A DNA stretch of 50,828 nt from a phage: the sequence record PZ452605.1; one strand, 5' to 3'. This document shows, one piece after another, positions 6,190 to 48,195 of this stretch. The notes beneath the pieces were generated by a model. It saw only the letters and a list, made by a program, of their open reading frames with translations, was not told the origin of the DNA and ran no database searches. How positions within the stretch are numbered: position 1 is the stretch's first letter; each line of letters starts with the position of its first letter. The position numbers were made by a program, and so were the translations under genes.

Positions 6190-6209
6190 CGTTTAACAAA
6201 AAGTGCTAT
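6190..6209 (-). repeat. intergenic motif copy, inverted relative to flanking genes
   Basis: GTTTAACAAAAAGTGCTAT upstream of capsid gene hairpin and RBS. Confidence 0.55.
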
Positions 6210-6232
6210 CATCTAGGCCGTTACATTTAACG
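6206..6232 (+). terminator. hairpin with T-tract upstream of capsid gene
   Basis: GGCCGTTACATTTAACGGCC then TTTTTT. Confidence 0.5.
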
Positions 6233-9945: not shown

Positions 9946-9965
9946 CTTTTAACAAAAAGTGCTAC
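9946..9965 (-). repeat. intergenic motif copy, inverted, abutting RBS of chaperone gene
   Basis: CTTTTAACAAAAAGTGCTAC then AAGGAG. Confidence 0.6.
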
Positions 9966-9979
9966 AAGGAGATCTTGAG

Positions 9980-20455: not shown

Positions 20456-20689
20456 TCACAGACTGCAATCATCGTTTTTAAAGTTATCAACGCTTACCCA
20501 CTGAAAATTAAACGGATAGCCAGCCTTAACCAGCGTCTGATCACCAACTCTTTTAGCGCCAAAAATAGCGACAGAATATTCCATGCCACTATTTTCATAA
20601 GTGGCCGTGCATTCACGTTTAGGCATATTTGCGCAACCAGTCAGGGCAACGGCGGCAATTAAAACTGCGATTAACTTTTTCATCTTCAA
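20456..20689 (-). CDS. cor: small lipoprotein, Cor-like superinfection exclusion candidate
   Basis: 77 aa; signal peptide with lipobox LTGC; sits right after tail fibre genes on opposite strand, as cor does in T1/phi80-type phages. Confidence 0.5.
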   Translation of the reverse strand: MKMKKLIAVLIAAVALTGCANMPKRECTATYENSGMEYSVAIFGAKRVGDQTLVKAGYPFNFQWVSVDNFKNDDCSL

Positions 20690-20738
20690 TACTCCTTAGT
20701 TGTTGTTGGCTGCAACTATACACGATCTTGGGCATCGC

Positions 20739-20757
20739 GTTTAGCAAAAAGTGCTAT
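20739..20757 (-). repeat. intergenic motif copy (variant) in cor-exonuclease control region
   Basis: GTTTAGCAAAAAGTGCTAT. Confidence 0.5.
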
Positions 20758-21125
20758 TTGTTATTTTTGTTTTCCGGTGTTATAGAATTTAAGACGGCGT
20801 AAATTTAGCGCAAATTTTAGACAACATAAGATCAATAAACAATCAATAAAATAGATATATACATATAAAATCAATAGTTTATTTATTTATGTATGTATAT
20901 TTGTTTTTTCTTGTTATCTTCGTTTCTTGTGGTTTTGGTTGTTTGTGGTGATTTTTCTTTCTGAGTATCTGTATATGCCATCATTCATGTGTATTTATAT
21001 AATCCGGCGTACCTGAGAGAACAGGGGAACAAGAAAAATAACACATATTAATCATTAACTTATGAGTCAAATCTGTTTTCTTGCCATCTGAGAACGTTTA
21101 GAAAACAGAAAAAACAAAACAGCTA

Positions 21126-21153
21126 TTGACTAAATCAACCAAATGGCTACAAT
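21126..21153 (+). promoter_or_regulatory. sigma70-like promoter (TTGACT-16-TACAAT)
   Basis: near-consensus -35 and -10 with 16-nt spacer, 30 nt upstream of exonuclease ATG. Confidence 0.55.
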
Positions 21154-21183
21154 GCACGCATAAAGCAACAAGGAGCATTAAAG

Positions 21184-22239
21184 ATGAGTGATTTTAACGC
21201 CTACACTAGCGAAGAAATGAGCAACGAGCTTTATCATGATCCTAACGCGTGGACGGCTGAATATGTCAGCGGTTCCAGCCTGGCGGAGATTTACAGCACT
21301 TGCCCGGCGTACTGGAAGTACAAGCCGCGCCAGGAAACTAAAGCACTTGTTTTCGGTACGCAGTCGCATACCAACTTTGAAAGCAAGGAGCTATTCGAAA
21401 AAACATATCGCCGCGCACCGTCGCAGGATGATTTTAAAGATCTGATCACTAGTCAAACGGCGTTAGCATCAAAGCTGAAATCTTTTGGCCTGAAAGGTAC
21501 GACGGGTAAACAATACCCTGAATTGCTGGAAATGCTGTACAAGTGCGGCGAGGATCTCAATGTGTGGTGGCTTATCGAAATGATGGCAGAATGCCAGGCC
21601 GCAGCGGACGGAGTGCAGTTAATAGACGCTAAAGATTATGATGCCTGTGTAGCGATGCGGCGCGTACTTGAGGCCATACCGGAGCATAACGCTTGCATGA
21701 ACAGCCCAACCGCGCAGCGTGAAATGTCAATATTTGGGATCATCAACGGCGTAAAAGTAAAAGTGCGTCTTGATCACGTTGACGTAAACAAGGATGTAAA
21801 GGCAACAATCATTAACGGTTACGACGAAAAAGGCAGGCCGATTTATGAAGAAGTCACCTATCCAGAAGCGGTGATTATCACTGACTACAAAACAACGGTT
21901 AGCGCAAATCCGGTTGACTTCCAGCGCCTGGCTTACAATCACGGCTATTATCTTAAAATGGCTTTGCAACATGACTTATTCAAAAAGGCGTATCCAGACG
22001 AGGAAAGGCCAGTAATTGTAAGATTGCTTGCTCAAGAGAAGAAAGAGCCTTACTTGCCGCTCGCATTCCGCATGAACATTGAGCAGTTGAAGATTGGACG
22101 TATCCAGTACATGAGCGTGATCAACAAGTTTAACGTTTGCCAGCAGTTAGATGAATGGCCTTCGTATGCAAACGGACAACCAGAAATTGATCTTGATACT
22201 CCTGATTGGGTCCGTGCTCAATTCAGGCAGTATCTGTGA
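21184..22239 (+). CDS. RecB-family (Cas4/RecE-like) PD-(D/E)XK exonuclease
   Basis: 351 aa; RLDHVD ... IITDYKTT nuclease motifs; precedes Erf and SSB. Confidence 0.65.
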   Translation: MSDFNAYTSEEMSNELYHDPNAWTAEYVSGSSLAEIYSTCPAYWKYKPRQETKALVFGTQSHTNFESKELFEKTYRRAPSQDDFKDLITSQTALASKLKSFGLKGTTGKQYPELLEMLYKCGEDLNVWWLIEMMAECQAAADGVQLIDAKDYDACVAMRRVLEAIPEHNACMNSPTAQREMSIFGIINGVKVKVRLDHVDVNKDVKATIINGYDEKGRPIYEEVTYPEAVIITDYKTTVSANPVDFQRLAYNHGYYLKMALQHDLFKKAYPDEERPVIVRLLAQEKKEPYLPLAFRMNIEQLKIGRIQYMSVINKFNVCQQLDEWPSYANGQPEIDLDTPDWVRAQFRQYL

Positions 22240-26749: not shown

Positions 26750-26766
26750 TGTAAAATCCTCCTAAA

Positions 26767-26786
26767 TAGCACTTTTTGCTAATGAC
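26767..26786 (+). repeat. intergenic motif copy abutting RBS of minus-strand fibre gene
   Basis: ATAGCACTTTTTGCTAATGA; inverted relative to the fibre gene. Confidence 0.55.
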
Positions 26787-26854: not shown

Positions 26855-27784
26855 TTATAGCAGTGATTCGGGCTTGTAGAGTTTTCTTTCTACGCCCTGT
26901 TTAAAATTATCGTTAACAGGCATCATTATGTCAAGCCCTCTTTCCTCTGCCGCGATTATCACATCACGATCATCTTTCCGGCAGACTACGCGCATTCTTC
27001 TTTCTCCTTTATATCTATGCGCAACCATTTCAAGATTTGAAGGAGTAAAACAGGCCCACACCTCTTGACCAGTTGATAAATGAACATGCTGAGAATCAAC
27101 CCAATCAAGGCACAAATAGATCGTCTTATCTGTGCTACCTGTTTTAACAACAGATCCGCGCGTGTAGTCGCGAGCTAAAAACCAATCCTTTCCATCCTCA
27201 TCAATGAAAAGCACGTTACACATTTCATCATCCAGCCCGTCATCATGCACCAGGTGACAAGGTAGCGCGTGAATGTATCGACCATCCTTGACGCCGCAAT
27301 CATAATGACAATCTTCCGGCGGATATATCCCTTCATAAACACTTAAAGGTGTGCGATCGAATTTTAATGTTTTTGCCATCACTTTTTCGCAGCATTCATG
27401 ACTTGCCTGTTTCCCGAACGAGTAACCAGAAGAACGCGAAGCGCGTTTGTTTGCTCTGATCCTGTAATCCTGCGGCACTTTTCCGAGGAAGCGGCCCAAA
27501 ATGTTGATGGCCTCGCTGTAAGGTTCGCCAGTTAATTTCATTAACCAACCGATCCCCGTGTCGTTGCCGCATACGTTGCAGATCGCGCCGCCGTCGCCCT
27601 CTTCATTTAGCTTATCAGTCCATCTAAAACGATCCTTACCGCCGCAGTGTGGGCAAGGTTGATGCTTTTTGTTGAAAACATCGCTATGCAGTCCACAAAT
27701 GCTTTGTAGTGCTTCACGCCATAACCCCTTCATATATGGCAAAACATCTTCTTTCTGATAGGTCATAAAGTTTTCAGTATTCAT
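26855..27784 (-). CDS. DNA primase (zinc-ribbon + TOPRIM type)
   Basis: CPHCGGKDRFRW zinc-binding motif and second CNVCG motif; acidic DxD-type region. Confidence 0.65.
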   Translation of the reverse strand: MNTENFMTYQKEDVLPYMKGLWREALQSICGLHSDVFNKKHQPCPHCGGKDRFRWTDKLNEEGDGGAICNVCGNDTGIGWLMKLTGEPYSEAINILGRFLGKVPQDYRIRANKRASRSSGYSFGKQASHECCEKVMAKTLKFDRTPLSVYEGIYPPEDCHYDCGVKDGRYIHALPCHLVHDDGLDDEMCNVLFIDEDGKDWFLARDYTRGSVVKTGSTDKTIYLCLDWVDSQHVHLSTGQEVWACFTPSNLEMVAHRYKGERRMRVVCRKDDRDVIIAAEERGLDIMMPVNDNFKQGVERKLYKPESLL

Positions 27785-27839
27785 GGCAAACCTCAATAAA
27801 AAAGCCCAGCAAATATTATCATTTCGCTGAGCCTTATCA

Positions 27840-28316
27840 TTAGCTATTTGTGCTGTTATCACCTTTGTAGAATCGTCCGCCTGGTTCGTAGTCTGAATTT
27901 TTGACTACGCGCAACATCTCGTATTTGTCGCAACGGGTAGTAAGAGGCTTACCGTTAGAATCAAACCGCAGATCTGGACGACAAAATGATGCGCGGTATC
28001 CTTTGCATCCATTATATTTGTAGTCGTTATGCACCTTTTGTGCTCCAGCGGCTGAAATCATACCACGCTTTCGCCATTGGTTAACGACTTGCTGAGATAC
28101 GCGTAGACGTCGAGCCATAGCAGGAACACCGCCATAATACTCGATCAGAATATCCAAGCGAGATTTCAGGCTTGCTTTTACCTCATCTCGCAGGATAAGA
28201 AATCCGGTTCGGTGTTTTCGTGGCTTTTTGTCTTTACCTCGTCGCGTTCCGTTGTTACCGTTAATAGTGCGCTTGTCGATCTCACCCGTAGACACCGCAA
28301 TTCGTGCATCTTTCAT
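27840..28316 (-). CDS. HTH DNA-binding protein (Cro/YdaS-like)
   Basis: YGGVPAMARRLRVSQQVVNQWRKRG helix-turn-helix signature; Cys-containing C-terminal extension. Confidence 0.5.
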   Translation of the reverse strand: MKDARIAVSTGEIDKRTINGNNGTRRGKDKKPRKHRTGFLILRDEVKASLKSRLDILIEYYGGVPAMARRLRVSQQVVNQWRKRGMISAAGAQKVHNDYKYNGCKGYRASFCRPDLRFDSNGKPLTTRCDKYEMLRVVKNSDYEPGGRFYKGDNSTNS

Positions 28317-28327
28317 CTAGTCACCTC

Positions 28328-28347
28328 ATAGCATTTTTTGTTAAAAC
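28328..28347 (+). repeat. intergenic motif copy abutting RBS of minus-strand HTH gene
   Basis: ATAGCATTTTTTGTTAAAAC in helicase-HTH divergent region. Confidence 0.55.
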
Positions 28348-28404
28348 AGTTTATTGTAATGAGTCTATTATATACTCCAAATGGCATTTTTTTAAAGGTT
28401 TAAG

Positions 28405-30402: not shown

Positions 30403-30821
30403 TGGCTATAACTGATAAAGGAGATTATCTTGAGTTTTACGAAAGAGATCCAACCGACACGAGAAAGGAAGTTAATCACCAGATAGATAGCTTTCAGTGG
30501 TTGACTTATGCTCATCCTTATTTGCTAGCGTGGCATACGGTAAACGAGAATGAGAAGTCGAAAGTAACTGCGATGATTGATCAGCAGTCCGGCTTGGTTA
30601 AGGGGGTAAGCGATTTCATCATCCTGATTGGTTCAAACGGAAAATACCCCTTTGCAGCGATTGAGATCAAACGAGTGAATAAATCAGGCAAGGGGAAAGC
30701 ATCACCAGTCAGCGATGAACAAAAGGCTTTTTTGCGTCGCGTTCGCAGCTTAGGAGGATTCGCTGCGGTCGCCTACGGATTTAATCAGTTTAAGTTAGCT
30801 ATTGAATACATGCTTAAATAG
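30402..30821 (+). CDS. VRR-NUC domain nuclease
   Basis: 139 aa; GVSDFIIL ... AIEIKR PD-(D/E)XK-like core; ATG overlaps helicase stop. Confidence 0.55.
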   Translation: MAITDKGDYLEFYERDPTDTRKEVNHQIDSFQWLTYAHPYLLAWHTVNENEKSKVTAMIDQQSGLVKGVSDFIILIGSNGKYPFAAIEIKRVNKSGKGKASPVSDEQKAFLRRVRSLGGFAAVAYGFNQFKLAIEYMLK

Positions 30822-30837
30822 CACTTTTTGTTAAAAC
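30818..30837 (+). repeat. intergenic motif copy, co-directional
   Basis: exact ATAGCACTTTTTGTTAAAAC containing stop TAG of VRR-NUC gene. Confidence 0.65.
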
Positions 30838-35341: not shown

Positions 35342-35663
35342 CGCCCATCTCCCCTATTCTAGCCATATCCCTGATCCAGTCGTTGCGCATACCATCCAGG
35401 CTATAAAATTCGAATCCGAAAGGCCGCTTTGACGATCCTTTGGACCAGTATTTACCGCAGACCCCATCTATATAGCCAGCCGTCATCATTCTTGCGCAAA
35501 ATTCCTTAGATGCAAGGCTGGCGAACATTCGCGGCGTAAGTCCGGCGGCCCGTGCGAGCCGCTCACATTCTCTATGCTGATAGATAAATTTGGCTATGTG
35601 CTGCCTGTTAAACCAGTCGTATGACTCACACCATTTATACAGATCAAGCAAAAACATAATCAT
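35268..35663 (-). CDS. hypothetical protein
   Basis: 131-aa ORF, start overlaps upstream stop. Confidence 0.4.
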   Translation of the reverse strand: MIMFLLDLYKWCESYDWFNRQHIAKFIYQHRECERLARAAGLTPRMFASLASKEFCARMMTAGYIDGVCGKYWSKGSSKRPFGFEFYSLDGMRNDWIRDMARIGEMGDDELFQAKANRQDLEALRRKFNIT

Positions 35664-37240
35664 CCCAGCAGTATTGGATTGACAAAAATAACACCATTAA
35701 TCACACAAACATAATTTCTTTCTTCCAGCATTGGCAGCAAGTGCCCTTCTATCCTCTTCATTACGCCAGCCTGACCAACGAAAGGTTTTACCTTTCTCGC
35801 TGATTCGTACAGGGCGCGAATATTCAGGATCCCTTTGTTAGCCTTGCCGTGCCTCGTGATCAATTCAATCAATTTACCCATTTCAGCATCATCACCAGCA
35901 TAACCAGAAGCATTGGCGGCGCTAATGTATGTTTTGCTCAACTCCTGAAACATGATCAGAGCCTCTTGCATTGTATCTACGTCGATCTCTTTCGACTTCT
36001 GCGGGTATCCAGCAGGATTAAACCAGTTGCGTATAACATGCAGGACGGAAGCAAGCCTGATCACCTGTTTATCCATTTTACCCAGCGCACCGCGTAACAT
36101 TGTATGAGAATACTTTCCTCCGTCTGCAAGATGCGGTTCCATATCCTGGCGAGCAATGTTGAGCACTCGCATAGCTGAACGGCTTATTTTCAGCGATATA
36201 TTTGATTCGCCCATGATGTTATGCACCAATTGATAATATTGGGCTTTCAATTCAGAATCCACCGCCTCATAGGTAGAATCACCATTTTCATCAATGAATG
36301 AGCGACGGCCTAAGAATGATTCCTCGCGGACCAACAAAAAACGCTCACTAACACCGATGCCTCGCGATCCAGCGTCCATTATTCCGCTTATCGTTTCATC
36401 CTGGGCTATAACGCTCATACATCCAAGCGCGCGAAAACTCATATTATTGTCAGCATTAGCGCGGGCAATTGATACGTGACCATTATCCCACGCCTTAAGC
36501 ACTAACTCACTGTTAGTCTTCCTTTCGCTATTTGCATAGGTCAAGCCTAACAGACTGTTAATACTTGTTGCTTCATCAGATATTACGGCAAAGTTACCTT
36601 GCTTGTTGTTGATTTTCGCCAAGCCTTCTGGAGTTGTATCTGAAACAGGAAAAGTTATATCACACATTTTTTCCAGCTTTTCCTCCAGATCCTCTTTTTC
36701 CTGGTATAGAGATTCCATATCAGCGCCGGATCTTTCGCTTTTCATCTCCTTTGCAAGACCTGCCAGCTTTGCCTGTATTTTCTTTCTTTCCTTGCGGCGT
36801 TGCTCGTTGATCTTCTCAACTTCCGCAATCATCGGAGCAATAGCCATGCTGTTGATCGCAGATTTACCAGTTGACGGCGGCTGGCTTGTAACGACGTAAA
36901 GCGCAGTCGGCTGATCGGTTCCGTGATAGTCAACCGTAAAGCGTCCAAGCATAGCGGCAGAAATGCAGCCGATAAAGTGCATGTAAGCCGATGATTCAGG
37001 GAATTGAACGGATCGCGCAATGCTGCGTGATAACTTGCCGACAACATCAATATCATTACCAAGAGAAATAACGGGGTAGCGATCGTGACCGCTATTCACA
37101 TCCTTTACGTCGCCCCAAAAGCTGGACGACTGGCGATAGCCGTTAGCCTGAATTGATACGCGAACTGGTGAGAGGTTCTGGCTTTCAGCCATAGCGATTA
37201 TTTGCTGTGGAGTTAATTTGTTCGTTTCTAATGAAAACAT
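35660..37240 (-). CDS. DUF3987-like P-loop NTPase
   Basis: 526 aa; P-loop-like VVTSQPPSTGKSA; largest protein of the early leftward cluster. Confidence 0.45.
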   Translation of the reverse strand: MFSLETNKLTPQQIIAMAESQNLSPVRVSIQANGYRQSSSFWGDVKDVNSGHDRYPVISLGNDIDVVGKLSRSIARSVQFPESSAYMHFIGCISAAMLGRFTVDYHGTDQPTALYVVTSQPPSTGKSAINSMAIAPMIAEVEKINEQRRKERKKIQAKLAGLAKEMKSERSGADMESLYQEKEDLEEKLEKMCDITFPVSDTTPEGLAKINNKQGNFAVISDEATSINSLLGLTYANSERKTNSELVLKAWDNGHVSIARANADNNMSFRALGCMSVIAQDETISGIMDAGSRGIGVSERFLLVREESFLGRRSFIDENGDSTYEAVDSELKAQYYQLVHNIMGESNISLKISRSAMRVLNIARQDMEPHLADGGKYSHTMLRGALGKMDKQVIRLASVLHVIRNWFNPAGYPQKSKEIDVDTMQEALIMFQELSKTYISAANASGYAGDDAEMGKLIELITRHGKANKGILNIRALYESARKVKPFVGQAGVMKRIEGHLLPMLEERNYVCVINGVIFVNPILLG

Positions 37241-37292: not shown

Positions 37293-37312
37293 GTTTTGTC
37301 AAAAAGTGCTAT
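37293..37312 (-). repeat. intergenic motif copy, co-directional (minus)
   Basis: ATAGCACTTTTTGACAAAAC containing stop TAG. Confidence 0.6.
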
Positions 37313-37530
37313 TTGATCCGCTCTATTGCAACCAGAAGTCGATCAGGCTGGCGGTCGCTGTAGCATTCTCCTGTAATCCCATCCTTAAACGTAAAGTAAA
37401 GCGCCTTATGATATGAAAAACCAATCAGCCAACCTACCGCCGTTTTTTTGATGGGCCTGACTATATCGCCAGGCTTGAAAGTCTTTGTGGTAGAATGCGT
37501 TACTTTGTAACGGTTTTCACTGTTTATCAC
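37309..37530 (-). CDS. hypothetical protein
   Basis: 73-aa ORF; stop embedded in intergenic motif. Confidence 0.4.
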   Translation of the reverse strand: MINSENRYKVTHSTTKTFKPGDIVRPIKKTAVGWLIGFSYHKALYFTFKDGITGECYSDRQPDRLLVAIERIK

Positions 37531-39999: not shown

Positions 40000-40020
40000 G
40001 TTTTTAACAAAAAGTGCTAT
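40000..40020 (-). repeat. intergenic motif copy, co-directional (minus)
   Basis: ATAGCACTTTTTGTTAAAAAC right after stop TAA. Confidence 0.65.
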
Positions 40021-40281
40021 TTAGTTCAGAAATTCGATTTCACGCTCTCCAGTTAGCGGATCTACAAGCCAGAATCCGAGCGGTTCGTGAGCACCGCCAT
40101 AGAATCCAAGCGCCGCCAGATCTTCACCTTTAACGAATACCAGATTTCCGCTACGGCTTACGTGAGACACGTTAACGATAACCGGAAATGTGCGATCCTT
40201 AAATGCAGGCCGCAGGGCGTAACATCCGTTATTGAGCAAACGTGCTTTGCGCTTAACTGGAATAGGTGCATTAATTTTCAT
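40021..40281 (-). CDS. hypothetical protein
   Basis: 86 aa; AAGGAG RBS 8 nt upstream. Confidence 0.45.
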   Translation of the reverse strand: MKINAPIPVKRKARLLNNGCYALRPAFKDRTFPVIVNVSHVSRSGNLVFVKGEDLAALGFYGGAHEPLGFWLVDPLTGEREIEFLN

Positions 40282-41322: not shown

Positions 41323-41625
41323 TTATTGTTTTGCGTGGCGCTCAATGTAAGCGCGGATAGTTTCAGCGGTGTCTTTCGCAGATCCAAACGTGCCCTTTAC
41401 ATGGCGAGCGTCGCGGTAAGCCTGGAAGAATTTACGCGCGATATTTGCAAACATTGCACCAGTAACGCGAGCGTCGCCAAAATTTGTTTCAATGGCATTG
41501 CTGATGCCGTCCTGGAATTCATGCTCAGTCATGAACAGTTCAGCCATTTCTGCTGTTTCGAACAGGTCAGCCAGTGCTGCCATATTCTCGTGGTCTTTAG
41601 CGGTGAACAGGTTCATGTTAATCAT
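41323..41625 (-). CDS. hypothetical protein, first gene of early leftward cluster
   Basis: 100 aa from ATG with GAGGA RBS. Confidence 0.45.
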   Translation of the reverse strand: MINMNLFTAKDHENMAALADLFETAEMAELFMTEHEFQDGISNAIETNFGDARVTGAMFANIARKFFQAYRDARHVKGTFGSAKDTAETIRAYIERHAKQ

Positions 41626-41689
41626 TGTTTGGTCCTCATTAAGTGCGGTTCGTTTCGATGTGTGCAATGTACCCGATCAGGCGGCCTGA

Positions 41690-41709
41690 GTTTTAACAAA
41701 AAGTGCTAT
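41690..41709 (-). repeat. intergenic motif copy upstream of first early leftward gene
   Basis: exact 20-mer with no upstream gene; iterons lie just upstream on minus strand. Confidence 0.65.
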
Positions 41710-41740
41710 TTGACGGTTAGCACCAGGATTGCGATCTAAA

Positions 41741-41828
41741 TAATCAAAAGTAATCATTCGTAATCAAATCACGTCAAAATGATGATTGCCTTTGCAAATT
41801 TGATGAGAAAAGTAATCACGTTTAATCA
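41741..41828. repeat. five TAATCA iterons at 10-bp phasing
   Basis: TAATCA at 41741, 41751, 41761, 41813, 41823; in divergent early control region. Confidence 0.6.
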
Positions 41829-42264
41829 TTGGTTGCAGGGGAGATAGTGAAACCTTCCCCTCTTGCCTCACTTTTCCGCCCGGCTGTCAGTGGTTGTTGT
41901 CTTTTGTTCACCCCTGTTACCGATTTCAGGCGGCGTGTTTCCGCGCGGTTTTCCGGTGTAGCGAAAACGGAAAAAACAAAGAAAATCCTCTATAATACAT
42001 TGAAAATAAAGATTATTTATTTATATATATCTATAATGTTTTCTTTTTGTTCTCACTGTTACAGTGCTTTTTGTTGGTTATGGTGTGGTTGTGTGTGGGT
42101 ATATATGGATAGTTGCGCGCGCGGCGGATTGCATATGTATATATACTTTTTCCGGCGGATTGCGTTAACAGCGTGAACAGAAAAATAACAGCCGCGAAAT
42201 CAATAACTTGCGCATGATTTTGTAGTTTTTCGATATTGGTAACGTTTTGAATACAACAAAAACA

Positions 42265-42292
42265 TTGACACGCACCAAATAGCTTTTATAAT
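42265..42292 (+). promoter_or_regulatory. consensus sigma70 promoter (TTGACA-16-TATAAT)
   Basis: perfect -35 and -10 hexamers with 16-nt spacer, 30 nt upstream of ATG 42324. Confidence 0.65.
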
Positions 42293-42323
42293 GCGCCAAC
42301 AGTCAACAACCGGAGGAAAGGAA

Positions 42324-42788
42324 ATGGAACAGAAAACCACTAAGGACTATTGCGATTGGCTTCGCGAGCTTGGTCGCCGCCTGGCTAGTGGAGATATTGA
42401 AGAGTATAAAATGTCACTAATTGACCTTGCCGGAATGTTAAGCGGTGACGACTGCTACAAGATCACGCGCAGTTCATCCTACAGCCGGACCATTATCAAC
42501 CGCGTTCCAGAAGTAAGGGCCGCAGGTCGGGTAAGTATCAAGGTCGAGGAAACGGAAGATGATAAATTTTACGTTTTCCGCATGGTCCGCGAATCGAAAA
42601 GGAAAATCATCACACCCGAAGAATTGCCAGCCATCAAGGCAAGGGCGATCAAAAAGTTTGCCGATCGCTTGCTGGCAGCAATCCCGAATATCGTTGACCT
42701 GGAAGGGGATAAACTGGCTGGAGCTTGTGAGGGCGTAAGCCGCTACCAGGATATGATCCGCGAAATCATCAAAGAGGAAGAGCAATGA
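42324..42788 (+). CDS. hypothetical protein, first gene of early rightward cluster
   Basis: 154 aa from ATG with GGAGG RBS. Confidence 0.45.
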   Translation: MEQKTTKDYCDWLRELGRRLASGDIEEYKMSLIDLAGMLSGDDCYKITRSSSYSRTIINRVPEVRAAGRVSIKVEETEDDKFYVFRMVRESKRKIITPEELPAIKARAIKKFADRLLAAIPNIVDLEGDKLAGACEGVSRYQDMIREIIKEEEQ

Positions 42789-43057
42789 AAAAGGCATTAA
42801 TCAGCGTTTTGGCGGCAATGGCATTCCTGACCGGATGCAAAGAAGATGGCGCGCATGTTGGCAATGTGCAGATGGCTAACCCTGGCGATGACTACAGCGT
42901 AAGGGAGCTATTCACCGCTGACGGTTGCACAGTTTACCGATTCTATGACGATCGCACTGTTTACTTCACCAACTGCAAGGGAACGACTAGCTGGGAAGTG
43001 TCGAAAAGCAATGGCAAAGGCACGAAGACAGAACATATGACCGTCGAAACAAAATAG
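42785..43057 (+). CDS. small lipoprotein (second)
   Basis: 90 aa; signal peptide with lipobox LTGC; two further Cys in mature part. Confidence 0.55.
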   Translation: MKKALISVLAAMAFLTGCKEDGAHVGNVQMANPGDDYSVRELFTADGCTVYRFYDDRTVYFTNCKGTTSWEVSKSNGKGTKTEHMTVETK

Positions 43058-43073
43058 CACTTTTTGTTAAAAC
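43054..43073 (+). repeat. intergenic motif copy, co-directional
   Basis: exact 20-mer containing stop TAG of lipoprotein gene; precedes candidate structured RNA. Confidence 0.65.
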
Positions 43074-47885: not shown

Positions 47886-48176
47886 ATGGCAAACAAAACT
47901 TACCGCAAACTACTGGTTAACGCTTTTGAAAACATCGCGCAGTGTAACAAGTGGAACGACTCTAAACACTCGCCAGTCACAATGAAGCGCGCCGGATTCA
48001 AAAATGCTCGTTCATGGGCGCGAGCTTTCGCATCTTGCTATATGCCTGATGGCGGATTAGGAGCGATGAACGATTTTTTAATCAACATGATAGAGGAGGC
48101 TGCGCGAGAGGATCGACCGCTGACACAGCGAGATTTTGACGACTTCGCGCGCGATGAGCTTTACTATCTGAGCTAA
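47886..48176 (+). CDS. hypothetical protein
   Basis: 96-aa ORF. Confidence 0.4.
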   Translation: MANKTYRKLLVNAFENIAQCNKWNDSKHSPVTMKRAGFKNARSWARAFASCYMPDGGLGAMNDFLINMIEEAAREDRPLTQRDFDDFARDELYYLS

Positions 48177-48195
48177 TAGCACTTTTTGTTAAAAC
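48176..48195 (+). repeat. intergenic motif copy, co-directional
   Basis: exact 20-mer after stop TAA; followed by hairpin AAGGGCA...TGCCCTT. Confidence 0.65.

What the first reader, a model, noticed from the sequence alone, without database searches (positions are those of the whole stretch)
20690..21183. Second long control region sharing AT/TG-rich blocks with the early control region
This 490-bp non-coding region between cor and the recombination module contains ATCAATA repeats (20831, 20842, 20870). Its block TTATTTATTTATGTATGTATATTTG followed by TG-rich GTGGTTTTGGTTGTTTGTGGTG resembles the block at 42011-42090 in the other divergent region. It also carries a variant motif copy and a near-consensus promoter at 21126. 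Two paralogous control regions imply shared regulation or shared host-factor binding.
Basis: seen in the sequence. Interest (0 to 1): 0.5.

Follow-up and report, generated by a model that had tools for sequence, protein, structure and literature searches.

The report
Duplicated origin-like control module in T1-like phage
The two long non-coding regions of this T1-like phage really do share an ancient, conserved 400-bp DNA module (phased short boxes, IHF-type sites, the genome's easiest-to-melt AT tract, a strong early promoter), which looks most like a pair of so-far-undescribed replication origins or, nearly as likely, a shared early-gene control platform.

Summary
Region A (20758-21160) and region B (41897-42294) align collinearly: 65% identity over 381 columns, local score 71 against 24±4 for shuffles that keep local composition and order.

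The duplication is old and family-wide. A profile built only from region-A orthologs finds near full-length B copies in most related T1-like (Drexlerviridae) phages. A-B identity within a genome (0.58) matches that between genomes (0.56).

Both copies share this order:
- GTT boxes
- AAC boxes
- an AT-rich palindromic centre with an IHF-consensus site
- three GTT boxes
- a G+T-only tract
- CCGGCG
- three AAC boxes (GTGAACA type)
- a second IHF-like site
- more AAC boxes
- a near-consensus rightward sigma-70 promoter

The two AT centres are the least stable duplex in the genome, also in T1 and a Tlsvirus. The G+T tracts are the two most strand-skewed windows.

I found no RNA family match, no conserved ORF and no DnaA boxes. 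Region B also carries phased TAATCA repeats where the TLS and T1 records begin, so it probably holds pac.

Best reading (about 0.4): a pair of initiator-type replication origins. Close rival (about 0.35): an IHF-assisted operator/enhancer for the early promoters. Function is inferred, not shown.

The parts
20456..20684 (-). cor (superinfection-exclusion lipoprotein) gene, left neighbour of region A
   Evidence: The ORF is listed and the ATG at 20684 with its AAGGAG ribosome-binding site is read. Homologous records annotate a Cor protein here.
20715..20760 (-). Leftward cor promoter: a copy of the 21-nt repeat (20739-20760, read on the - strand as CAAATAGCACTTTTTGCTAAAC) plus a -10 TATAGT (20715-20720). 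It is not part of the duplicated module.
   Evidence: One search found about 20 copies genome-wide, each with a -10-like hexamer roughly 20 nt downstream. The block is conserved in cor-containing orthologs. The repeat class is described for TLS in PMC11447400. Promoter function is inferred.
20758..21160 (+). Copy A of the shared ~400-bp module
   Evidence: nhmmer matches profile positions 2-396. Searches align it with copy B. 29 orthologous copies lie upstream of exoVIII in the related loci searched (the 43 IMG/VR loci plus three GenBank loci).
20768..20782 (+). L1: two GTT boxes 10 bp apart (TGTTT at 20768, TGTTA at 20778). Orthologs read TGTTC-N5-TGTTCAC here.
20795..20804 (+). CGGCGTAAAT block, first of two internal copies (the second is at 21004-21014)
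20812..20911 (.). AT-rich centre and candidate DNA-unwinding element. It is the least stable 100-bp duplex of the genome (z 5.2; the 60-bp minimum is 20842-20901, z 4.9). It forms an imperfect palindrome, 20838-20870 against 20883-20915.
   Evidence: The same property holds in T1 and in a Tlsvirus.
20869..20881 (+). IHF-consensus site 1, AATCAATAGTTTA (WATCAANNNNTTR)
   Evidence: an exact match at the same module position and strand in many A and B orthologs. Binding was not tested.
20902..20925 (+). L2: three GTT boxes at 20902, 20912 and 20921 (spacing 10 and 9 bp), inverted relative to R1 and R2
   Evidence: Inverted-repeat pairs I3 and I7.
20900..20966 (+). G+T-rich tract. In the 50-nt window from 20900, G+T is 0.90, the highest strand skew in the genome. 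The composition is conserved but the sequence is not.
21004..21043 (+). CCGGCG followed by R1: three AAC boxes (GAACA at 21019, GAACA at 21027, TAACA at 21039). Orthologs read GTGAACA here.
21050..21062 (+). IHF-like site 2, AATCATTAACTTA (one mismatch to the consensus; an exact match in many orthologs)
21072..21121 (+). TCTGTTTTCT / AGAAAACAGA inverted pair and R2 AAC boxes (AACGTT at 21092; AAACA at 21103, 21112 and 21117), immediately upstream of the -35
21126..21153 (+). Rightward sigma-70 promoter TTGACT-16-TACAAT for the exoVIII/erf/ssb operon. The sequence, spacer included, is highly conserved in A orthologs.
21184..22239 (+). Exonuclease VIII (RecE-like) gene, right neighbour of region A
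41690..41712 (-). Copy of the 21-nt repeat in region B. It drives the leftward early operon, whose first gene starts at 41625.
41741..41828 (+). B-specific segment, absent from region A: TAATCA at 41741, 41751 and 41761 and at 41813 and 41823, exactly 10-bp phased. Candidate pac / small-terminase binding region.
   Evidence: The TLS record starts inside the corresponding TGATT-rich segment, about 125 nt left of the module. The T1 record and its 2.8-kb terminal repeat start in a similar TGATT/AATCA-rich stretch. PMC7718038 places pac in this untranslated region. The assignment is inferred.
41897..42294 (+). Copy B of the shared module
   Evidence: nhmmer with the A-only profile matches positions 4-391, E 2e-39.
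41905..41978 (+). B L1 boxes (TGTTCACC at 41905-41912, TGTTA at 41915), CGGCG at 41931, and AAC boxes at 41965 and 41974
41972..42071 (.). B AT-rich centre. It is the second least stable 100-bp window of the genome (z 4.3; the 60-bp window 41988-42047 has z 4.7) and is palindromic. It is flanked by inverted arms at 41970-41985 and 42039-42054.
42037..42115 (+). B L2 GTT boxes (42037, 42048, 42057) and G+T-rich tract (the 50-nt window from 42066 has G+T 0.86, second highest in the genome)
42152..42210 (+). CCGGCG, R1 AAC boxes (TAACA at 42166, GTGAACA at 42173-42179, TAACA at 42186) and the IHF-consensus site AATCAATAACTTG (42198-42210)
   Evidence: Inverted pair I1.
42240..42292 (+). R2 boxes (AACGTT at 42240, AAACA at 42260) and a perfect-consensus rightward promoter TTGACA-16-TATAAT (42265-42292). 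The first gene starts at 42324.

Best explanation
Regions A and B each contain one copy of an ancient, conserved ~400-bp cis-acting module on which a nucleoprotein complex assembles. I think the most likely function is a pair of phage replication origins.

Proposed mechanism, all inferred:
1. A phage-encoded initiator binds the helically phased GTT/AAC boxes (G-N-N-AACA, often GTGAACA). The boxes are arranged as inverted arrays on both sides of the AT-rich centre.
2. Candidate initiators are the MCM-like AAA+ helicase with a C-terminal winged helix (35663-37240), the primase with a P4-alpha-like N-terminal domain, or an unidentified early protein.
3. Host IHF bends the DNA at the two consensus sites.
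4. The complex, helped by negative supercoiling behind the strong outward-reading early promoter(s), melts the TATATA-rich centre, which is the weakest duplex in the genome.
5. The adjacent G+T/C+A strand-asymmetric tract offers a strand-specific single-stranded landing zone for helicase or primase.

What is shown: the duplication, its conservation, the motif architecture, and the thermodynamic and compositional extremes. What is inferred: binding, melting and initiation.
For: 1. The module is real and constrained.
- A and B align far above composition-matched shuffles.
- A profile built only from A orthologs recovers near full-length B copies in most relatives searched (E 1e-39 to 1e-15).
- B-B orthologs (0.56 identity) are as diverged as A-B paralogs (0.56-0.58), yet the same blocks survive in both sets. 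That argues for purifying selection on shared motifs, not recent copying.

2. It has unwinding-element properties.
- The two AT centres are the top two least-stable duplex windows genome-wide in this phage (z 4.9 and 4.7; next best 3.5).
- The same holds in T1 (5.8 and 5.5; next 3.8) and in a Tlsvirus (5.2 and 5.0; next 3.3).
- The centres are palindromic and flanked by inverted box arrays.

3. It has iteron-like boxes.
- TGTT/AACA boxes recur at 9-11-bp spacing in conserved positions and orientations.
- GTGAACA occurs at 1.72 per kb in 32 elements against 0.04 per kb in background.

4. IHF-consensus sites lie at two fixed positions, 16-fold enriched.

5. The G+T tracts of A and B are the two most strand-skewed 50-nt windows of the genome.

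6. The phage encodes its own initiation-type machinery.
- A primase is homologous to the N-terminal primase domain of P4 alpha (E 1.6e-15).
- A DUF3987 protein gives a confident model (pLDDT 88) that matches MCM helicases (Foldseek E 1e-5 to 1e-3). It ends in a winged-helix domain.

7. 400 bp of slowly evolving non-coding DNA is long for a phage promoter region. In Tlsvirus, copy A keeps its distal half although there is no leftward gene or promoter.

8. The papers I could read state that no origin has been found in T1-like phages (PMC11447400; PMC7718038). The role is therefore vacant.
Against: - There is no experimental evidence of initiation at either site.
- No initiator has been shown or predicted to read the boxes. 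The winged helix of the MCM-like protein resembles generic and protein-interaction winged helices (best Foldseek E 0.03). It did not retrieve the P4 alpha origin-binding domain.
- Box sequences do not clearly co-vary between A and B within a genome.
- There are no DnaA boxes, and GATC is not enriched.
- Each copy is always fused to a strong early promoter, and the last boxes lie at about -38 to -65, where UP elements or activator sites sit. A transcriptional role would therefore explain at least the promoter-proximal half.
- AT-rich, IHF-containing upstream regions are also typical of strong phage promoters.
Confidence: 0.4

Rival explanations
1. The module is an early-promoter control platform. 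Under this reading it is a long upstream operator/enhancer for the two strongest sigma-70 early promoters (21126 and 42265). A phage regulator binds the phased GTT/AAC boxes, for example the Cro-like HTH protein at 27843-28316. IHF bends the DNA at the two sites, wrapping it to boost immediate-early transcription and/or to shut it off later. The two operons are therefore co-regulated. This is essentially the first reader's view.
For: - Every copy ends in a conserved consensus-like promoter. In A orthologs even the spacer is conserved.
- The R2 boxes are A-tracts at UP-element positions.
- The genome-wide 21-nt promoter repeat contains a similar TTAACAAAAA box.
- IHF-consensus sites lie about 100 and 285 bp upstream of the predicted start.
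- The phage encodes a Cro-like HTH protein.
- Only the promoter-distal half is strongly shared in some B orthologs, and the spacer between the halves tolerates insertions. The two halves may therefore have separate roles.
- A precedent from general knowledge: the Mu operator/enhancer region, with many short repressor boxes plus an IHF site between divergent promoters.
Against: - This reading does not need, and does not explain, several features: the weakest duplex of the genome, a palindromic TATATA core, a composition-only conserved G+T strand-skewed tract, or conservation out to -400.
- HTH dimers usually read closely spaced inverted repeats, not 9-11-bp phased direct arrays.
- My rough curvature model shows no outstanding intrinsic bend in A.
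Confidence: 0.35
2. The shared module is a packaging or genome-end element, meaning pac or an accessory terminase or end-protection site.
For: - Region B coincides with the conventional genome end of T1-like phages. The T1 record and its terminal repeat start there, and the TLS record starts there.
- PMC7718038 places pac in this untranslated region.
- The layout of boxes plus an IHF site resembles lambda cosB and P1 pac (general knowledge).
Against: - The TLS and T1 record starts fall in the B-specific TGATT/AATCA-repeat segment, left of the shared module.
- Copy A lacks that segment and lies about 21 kb away, in the middle of the genome.
- A second pac 21 kb from the first is not known for T1 (general knowledge).
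Confidence: 0.08
3. The similarity is a by-product with no function of its own: a recent duplication, gene conversion, or convergent AT-rich low complexity.
For: Both regions are AT-rich and contain simple TATATA runs. The window's copy B scores higher against the A profile than the other B copies do (133 bits against 104 or less), so some local exchange is possible.
Against: - Block shuffles that keep local composition reach at most 38 against the observed 71.
- The paralogy is present across genera, and within-genome identity is not elevated.
- Positions and orientations of specific motifs are conserved in 32 elements.
Confidence: 0.03
4. The module encodes a structured non-coding RNA or a small peptide.
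For: Some GenBank records call small hypothetical ORFs in these regions. T/G-rich sequence stays open in some reading frames.
Against: - No Rfam family reaches its gathering score anywhere in the window, and there are no tRNAs.
- RNA folding z-scores are only -1.2 to -2.4, which the inverted box arrays can explain.
- No ORF is conserved in position, strand or frame, and some orthologs have none of 25 aa or more.
- The module lies upstream of both flanking promoters.
Confidence: 0.03

Closest known systems
Satellite phage P4 ori / crr (two cis-required regions with type-1 iterons TGTTCACC, bound by the alpha primase-helicase)
   Same: - Two separated cis regions per genome carry the same short box in both orientations at about 10-bp spacing next to AT-rich DNA.
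- The box core is the same 7-mer. P4 has (G)GTGAACA(G), verified in the annotated P4 record. Here GTGAACA is 43-fold enriched, and an exact TGTTCACC occurs at 41905-41912.
- The phage primase is homologous to the N-terminal primase domain of P4 alpha (E 1.6e-15).
   Different: - There is no detectable sequence homology between the modules (nhmmer finds no hit at E<=10).
- No homolog of the alpha C-terminal origin-binding domain was found.
- The boxes here are degenerate (G-N-N-AACA), and IHF sites plus a G+T tract are present.
- The 7-mer identity could be coincidence.
Origins built as inverted initiator boxes flanking an AT-rich unwinding element, present in several copies and/or between divergent promoters: archaeal oriC (ORB repeats with Orc1/Cdc6 and MCM), HSV oriS/oriL, the SV40 core origin, SPP1 oriL/oriR (general knowledge)
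   Same: - Inverted arrays of short boxes lie on both sides of the least stable DNA.
- There is more than one paralogous copy per genome.
- The module sits in promoter-containing intergenic regions.
- The phage encodes an MCM-like AAA+ helicase with a C-terminal winged helix.
   Different: The resemblance is of architecture only. There is no homology, the initiator is unidentified, and initiation has not been demonstrated.
IHF-assisted phage operator/enhancer regions upstream of early promoters (Mu O1-O3/IAS between Pe and Pc; the lambda PL upstream IHF/UP region) (general knowledge)
   Same: - Many short boxes occur in both orientations.
- IHF-consensus sites are present.
- The location is next to, and in most genera between, early promoters.
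- A-tract boxes lie at UP-element positions.
   Different: - The module is much longer (about 400 bp).
- It contains an extreme AT-rich palindrome and a strand-skewed G+T tract.
- The phage is virulent, and no repressor is known to bind the boxes.
The 21-nt intergenic repeat of T1-like phages (aaATAGCACnnnTTGnTAAAA; described for TLS in PMC11447400)
   Same: One copy lies at the left edge of each region (20739-20760 and 41690-41712). It contains an AACAAAAA-type box like those of the module.
   Different: It is a separate, already described element with about 20 copies genome-wide. It is not part of the A/B duplication. In Tlsvirus it is absent from region A while the module remains.

Membership tests
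Initiator/iteron-type replication origin (generic) | AT-rich DNA-unwinding element of low duplex stability | tested here: met
   The A and B centres are the two least stable 60- and 100-bp windows in this genome, in T1 and in a Tlsvirus.
Initiator/iteron-type replication origin (generic) | Multiple phased copies of a short initiator-binding box next to the unwinding element | tested here: inconclusive
   Conserved GTT/AAC boxes occur at 9-11-bp spacing in inverted arrays, and GTGAACA is 43-fold enriched. The binding protein is unknown.
Initiator/iteron-type replication origin (generic) | Replication actually initiates there, or the site supports initiator-dependent replication of a plasmid | not testable with these tools
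   This needs marker-frequency, 2D-gel or plasmid-amplification experiments.
DnaA-dependent (oriC-like) origin | Clustered DnaA boxes TTWTNCACA (and GATC clusters) | tested here: not met
   There is no exact DnaA box in any of the 32 elements, and boxes with one mismatch or fewer are no denser than background. Each window copy holds a single GATC.
P4 ori/crr | Several exact or near-exact TGTTCACC type-1 iterons | tested here: inconclusive
   The 7-mer GTGAACA is enriched across orthologs (24 occurrences in 32 elements). The window has only one exact 8-mer, at 41905 in copy B, and none in copy A.
P4 ori/crr | Sequence homology to P4 ori or crr | tested here: not met
   nhmmer of the module profile against the whole P4 genome finds no hit at E<=10.
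P4 ori/crr | Alpha-type protein with a C-terminal origin-binding domain | tested here: not met
   Only the N-terminal primase domain of alpha has a homolog. No match to the alpha C-terminus appears in BLASTP, PDB sequence searches or the top 50 Foldseek matches.
Sigma-70 promoter with UP element / upstream IHF activation | Near-consensus -35 and -10 hexamers with A/T-rich DNA at -40 to -60 and an upstream IHF site | tested here: met
   The promoters are TTGACT-16-TACAAT and TTGACA-16-TATAAT. A-tract R2 boxes lie directly upstream, and an IHF-like site lies about 100 bp upstream. This covers only the promoter-proximal ~120 bp of the module, and activity was not tested.
pac site (headful packaging initiation) | Coincidence with the mapped genome end or terminase recognition repeats | tested here: not met
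   This holds for the shared module. The TLS and T1 record starts lie in the B-specific TGATT/AATCA segment outside the module, and copy A has no such segment. For the B-specific segment at 41741-41828 the feature is plausibly met.
Structured non-coding RNA | Match to a known RNA family, or stable conserved secondary structure | tested here: not met
   There are no Rfam or tRNA hits. Folding z-scores are -1.2 to -2.4.
T1-like 21-nt intergenic repeat (PMC11447400) | Match to aaATAGCACnnnTTGnTAAAA upstream of a gene, in the direction of transcription | tested here: met
   The copy at 20739-20760 is on the cor strand and the copy at 41690-41712 on the leftward-operon strand. This applies to the flanking motif only, not to the duplicated module.

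The most novel reading that the evidence does not exclude
The two modules are the long-sought replication origins of T1-like (Drexlerviridae) phages. In this reading they form a two-origin system in which inverted arrays of GTGAACA-type boxes and IHF sites flank the genome's weakest duplex. The phage's own MCM-like AAA+ helicase / primase machinery fires them, and the adjacent early promoters provide transcriptional activation. The architecture is otherwise best known from archaeal, herpesvirus and SV40 origins.
Probability: 0.35. Interest if true: 0.65.

Novelty: new variant of a known kind. Interest (0 to 1): 0.55.

Why it matters
T1 is one of the classic T phages, yet the papers I could read say its relatives' origin of replication has not been found. 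The same papers say the roles of their intergenic repeats are open questions (PMC11447400, PMC7718038).

This analysis gives two precisely delimited, family-wide candidate loci with explicit motifs: boxes, IHF sites, an unwinding centre and a strand-skewed tract. The question therefore becomes directly testable by marker-frequency sequencing, plasmid amplification and footprinting.

Even if the module turns out to be a transcriptional platform, it would define how the two main early operons are co-controlled. It would also separate that function from the neighbouring candidate pac repeats in region B.

There is a practical use as well. Many deposited genomes annotate spurious 'hypothetical proteins' across these regions, and those calls could be corrected.

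Tried and rejected
- **Low-complexity artefact.** Rejected by dinucleotide shuffles and by block shuffles that keep local composition.
- **Third copy.** None in the window.
- **Recent duplication or concerted evolution.** Rejected: within-genome A-B identity is 0.58 against 0.56 between genomes.
- **Non-coding RNA.** No Rfam or tRNA hit, and folding z-scores are weak.
- **Small peptide over the T/G-rich tract, or any conserved ORF on either strand.** None is conserved.
- **DnaA boxes and GATC clustering.** Both absent.
- **Intrinsic curvature.** I wrote a rough wedge-model script with parameters recalled from memory and did not validate it. Copy A is unremarkable (z 1.5) and copy B moderate (z 3.6). 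I treat this as inconclusive.
- **Homology to P4 ori/crr.** None, despite the shared 7-mer.
- **Presence outside phages.** No match in the plasmid or complete E. coli genome collections.
- **Shared module as pac.** The record starts map to the B-specific segment instead.
- **Right-hand early gene of region B as an anchor for orthologs.** It found only 2 loci, so I used the helicase as anchor instead.
- **Literature.** Searches for a described T1-family origin, or for these regions, found nothing. The Rtp genome paper (PMC1367250) is not held, and I could not read the 2004 T1 genome paper, so an earlier description there cannot be excluded.
- **Winged helix of the MCM-like protein against the P4 alpha origin-binding domain.** Only generic winged-helix matches came back.
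Full report
**What the window is.** The 50.8-kb window is a complete genome of a T1-like siphovirus (Drexlerviridae). The stretch around the finding is 93-98% identical to phages such as vB_Eco_SLUR29, JLBYU01, tonn and tunus. Region A lies between cor (20456-20684, minus strand) and an exonuclease VIII (RecE-like) gene at 21184-22239. An Erf-family annealing protein and an SSB follow. Region B (41626-42323) lies between the first gene of a leftward early operon and the first gene of a rightward early operon.

**Checking the observation.** The claimed resemblance is real.
- blastn aligns 20758-21116 with 41894-42264 at 65% identity over 381 columns (E 1.6e-25), and no third copy exists.
- The local alignment score is 71. 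Dinucleotide shuffles give 12.5±1.6.
- Shuffles confined to 25-nt blocks keep the order of AT-rich and GT-rich patches, and they give only 24.3±3.7 with a maximum of 38.

The similarity is therefore ordered and collinear, not compositional.

**How old and how widespread the duplication is.** I fetched 43 loci carrying the exonuclease gene with its upstream region, and 45 loci carrying the helicase that lies 4.4 kb from region B.
- A profile HMM built only from 15 non-redundant region-A sequences (the window's own plus 14 orthologs) finds the window's region B over profile positions 4-391 of 396 (E 2e-39).
- It also finds near full-length B copies in most related genomes (E 1e-30 to 1e-15).
- A-B identity within a genome (0.58) is no higher than between genomes (0.56). 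A-A orthologs are 0.67 identical and B-B orthologs 0.56.

The duplication is thus ancient and the copies evolve independently. What they still share is probably what selection keeps. T1 itself (subfamily Tunavirinae) has analogous regions, with TATATA centres and its own box variant TGTAACA/TGTTACA.

**Anatomy of the module.** The consensus of 15 A and 17 B sequences, with window coordinates for copy A then copy B, reads from left to right:
- Two GTT boxes 10 bp apart (20768, 20778 / 41905, 41915). Orthologs read TGTTC-N5-TGTTCAC.
- A CGGCG block.
- Two AAC boxes. These are degenerate in the window's copy A.
- An AT-rich palindromic centre with an exact IHF-consensus site in copy A (AATCAATAGTTTA, 20869-20881).
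- Three GTT boxes (20902, 20912, 20921 / 42037, 42048, 42057).
- A 50-70-nt tract made almost only of G and T. Its sequence varies but its composition does not.
- TATATAT, then CCGGCG.
- Three AAC boxes (21019, 21027, 21039 / 42166, 42175, 42186). These often read GTGAACA.
- A second IHF-type site (21050-21062, one mismatch / 42198-42210, exact).
- A TTTTGTT box.
- AACGTT plus two or three more AAC boxes.
- A rightward sigma-70 promoter (TTGACT-16-TACAAT at 21126 / TTGACA-16-TATAAT at 42265).

The GTT arrays and AAC arrays form long-range inverted repeats. In copy A one pair is 20896-20915 with 21028-21047 (80% complementary). In copy B one pair is 42037-42061 with 42166-42190 (80%). The AT centre is itself an imperfect palindrome. 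The spacer between the G+T tract and TATATAT tolerates insertions, and in some B orthologs only the distal ~166 profile positions are recognisable. The module may therefore be bipartite.

**Quantitative signatures.**
- Duplex stability. The two AT centres are the two least stable 60- and 100-bp windows of the genome (z 4.9 and 4.7; the next is 3.5). The same is true in T1 (5.8 and 5.5; next 3.8) and in the Tlsvirus Stevie_ev116 (5.2 and 5.0; next 3.3).
- Strand skew. The G+T tracts are the two most strand-skewed 50-nt windows of the genome, at 0.90 and 0.86.
- IHF sites. Exact IHF-consensus matches occur at 1.86 per kb in the 32 elements against 0.11 per kb in background. They are always on the + strand and at two fixed positions.
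- Boxes. GTGAACA occurs at 1.72 per kb against 0.04 per kb.

**What the module is not.**
- No Rfam family and no tRNA was found anywhere in the window.
- Single-strand folding is unremarkable, with z between -1.2 and -2.4.
- No ORF is conserved in position, strand or frame, so the 'hypothetical proteins' called here in some GenBank records are probably spurious.
- There are no DnaA boxes.
- The module is absent from the plasmid collection and from complete E. coli genomes.

**The flanking parts.** The 'variant motif copy' at 20739-20760 belongs to a class of about 20 intergenic repeats. That class is already described for phage TLS as aaATAGCACnnnTTGnTAAAA, with unknown function (PMC11447400). 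Here it sits about 20 nt upstream of a -10-like TATAGT on the cor strand, so I read it as the cor promoter. In Tlsvirus genomes cor and this motif are both missing, yet module A remains directly after the late-operon terminator. The module is therefore tied to the rightward promoter and not to a divergent arrangement.

Region B has an extra ~180 bp that A lacks. It carries TAATCA at exactly 10-bp spacing, three copies then two (41741-41828). The TLS record begins inside the corresponding TGATT-rich segment, about 125 nt left of the module; its authors mapped pac by restriction analysis and then assigned AGATTT as the pac sequence. The T1 record and its annotated 2.8-kb terminal repeat begin in a similar stretch. 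The SU57 paper places pac in this untranslated region. Region B is therefore a composite: a leftward promoter, a probable pac segment, the shared module and a rightward promoter.

**Candidate trans-acting factors.**
- The primase (26858-27862) has the primase zinc ribbon. It is homologous to the N-terminal primase domain of P4 alpha (24% identity, E 1.6e-15).
- Next to it lies a 158-aa Cro-like helix-turn-helix protein.
- The DUF3987 'helicase' (35663-37240) gives a confident AlphaFold model (pLDDT 88). Its best PDB matches are all MCM2-7 or archaeal MCM subunits (E 1e-5 to 1e-3).
- Its last 80 residues fold as a winged helix (pLDDT 90). That domain matches cullin, MCM, kleisin and MarR-type winged helices with TM 0.55-0.72 but weak E-values.
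- None of these proteins is shown to read the boxes.

**Comparison with P4.** The P4 record confirms that its type-1 iterons are TGTTCACC. They occur in both orientations at about 10-bp spacing, in two separate cis regions called ori and crr. The box core here is the same 7-mer, and one exact TGTTCACC lies at 41905. However, the module profile finds nothing in P4, and no homolog of the alpha origin-binding domain was detected. The module works like P4 ori/crr at the level of layout, but it is not a member of that family.

**Interpretation.** Two readings remain close. I favour an origin-type module at about 0.4. The reasons are the extreme and conserved duplex instability, the palindromic centre bracketed by inverted phased boxes, and the IHF sites. 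The strand-asymmetric tract, the length and slow evolution of the element, and the presence of phage initiation-type proteins point the same way. The papers available to me also report that no origin has been identified in T1-like phages.

The proposed steps are box binding, IHF bending, melting of the AT centre helped by promoter-generated negative supercoiling, and helicase/primase loading on the skewed tract. All of these are inferred.

The rival, at about 0.35, is an IHF-assisted operator/enhancer that co-regulates the two strongest early promoters. It certainly accounts for the promoter-proximal boxes at UP-element positions. A dual role, with a distal half acting as origin and a proximal half as promoter control, is compatible with the bipartite conservation. 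Packaging, by-product, RNA and peptide readings are unlikely for the shared module.

**Novelty.** I found no description of this paralogous module in the searchable literature. I could not read the original T1 and Rtp genome papers. I rate the module as a new variant of a known kind of element. It is of moderate interest because it turns an open question, where T1-like phages start replication and how their early operons are coupled, into a set of direct experiments.

Noticed in passing
window 41741-41828: A B-specific array of TAATCA at exactly 10-bp spacing (41741, 41751, 41761, then 41813, 41823), absent from region A. The TLS and T1 GenBank records start inside the corresponding TGATT/AATCA-rich segments, so this is a candidate pac / small-terminase binding site.
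   Followed up: partly
window, about 20 sites (e.g. 1563-1577, 6198-6212, 9954-9968, 26763-26777, 28325-28339, 30815-30829, 37301-37315, 40009-40023, 43051-43065, 48173-48187): This is the genome-wide 21-nt repeat (TTTTAACAAAAAGTGCTATTT and its complement), known from TLS with unknown function. Most copies lie about 20 nt upstream of a -10-like hexamer, often with an extended TG, on the gene strand. At least two copies (9954-9968 and 26763-26777) are in the opposite orientation, directly abutting the ribosome-binding site of the downstream gene. The motif may therefore have two modes of use.
   Followed up: partly
window 35663-37240 (- strand): The DUF3987 'helicase' gives a high-confidence model whose best structural matches are all MCM2-7 or archaeal MCM subunits, and it ends in a winged-helix domain. 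T1-like phages therefore appear to encode an MCM-like AAA+ replicative helicase.
   Followed up: partly
window 42108-42127, and the left edge of many region-B orthologs (e.g. L052, L056, L072): Short alternating GCGCGCGC runs, which are prone to Z-DNA, occur inside or beside module B but at different positions in different phages. In the window the run lies in the variable spacer as an insertion relative to copy A.
   Followed up: no
L007 / L088 (IMG/VR contig 3300045988_025133) compared with the window: This relative has an exonuclease VIII identical to the window's and a helicase 99% identical. Its module B, however, is only about 74% identical to the window's module B in the core. This suggests mosaic exchange at region B.
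   Followed up: no
whole window: GATC occurs 293 times (5.8 per kb, above the 3.9 per kb expected for a random tetramer). That is consistent with a phage Dam methylase, which T1 is annotated to encode. Each of the two modules contains only one GATC.
   Followed up: no
L005 19995-20405 (Stevie_ev116); L015, L017, L019: Tlsvirus genomes lack cor and the leftward promoter motif. Module A follows the late-operon terminator directly, yet its distal half is fully conserved.
   Followed up: partly
window 28317-28404: The short divergent region between the Cro-like/primase operon and the SF2 helicase gene holds two copies of the 21-nt repeat (28325-28339 and 28378-28392) plus a TATAAT. It is the fourth least stable 100-bp window of the genome.
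   Followed up: no
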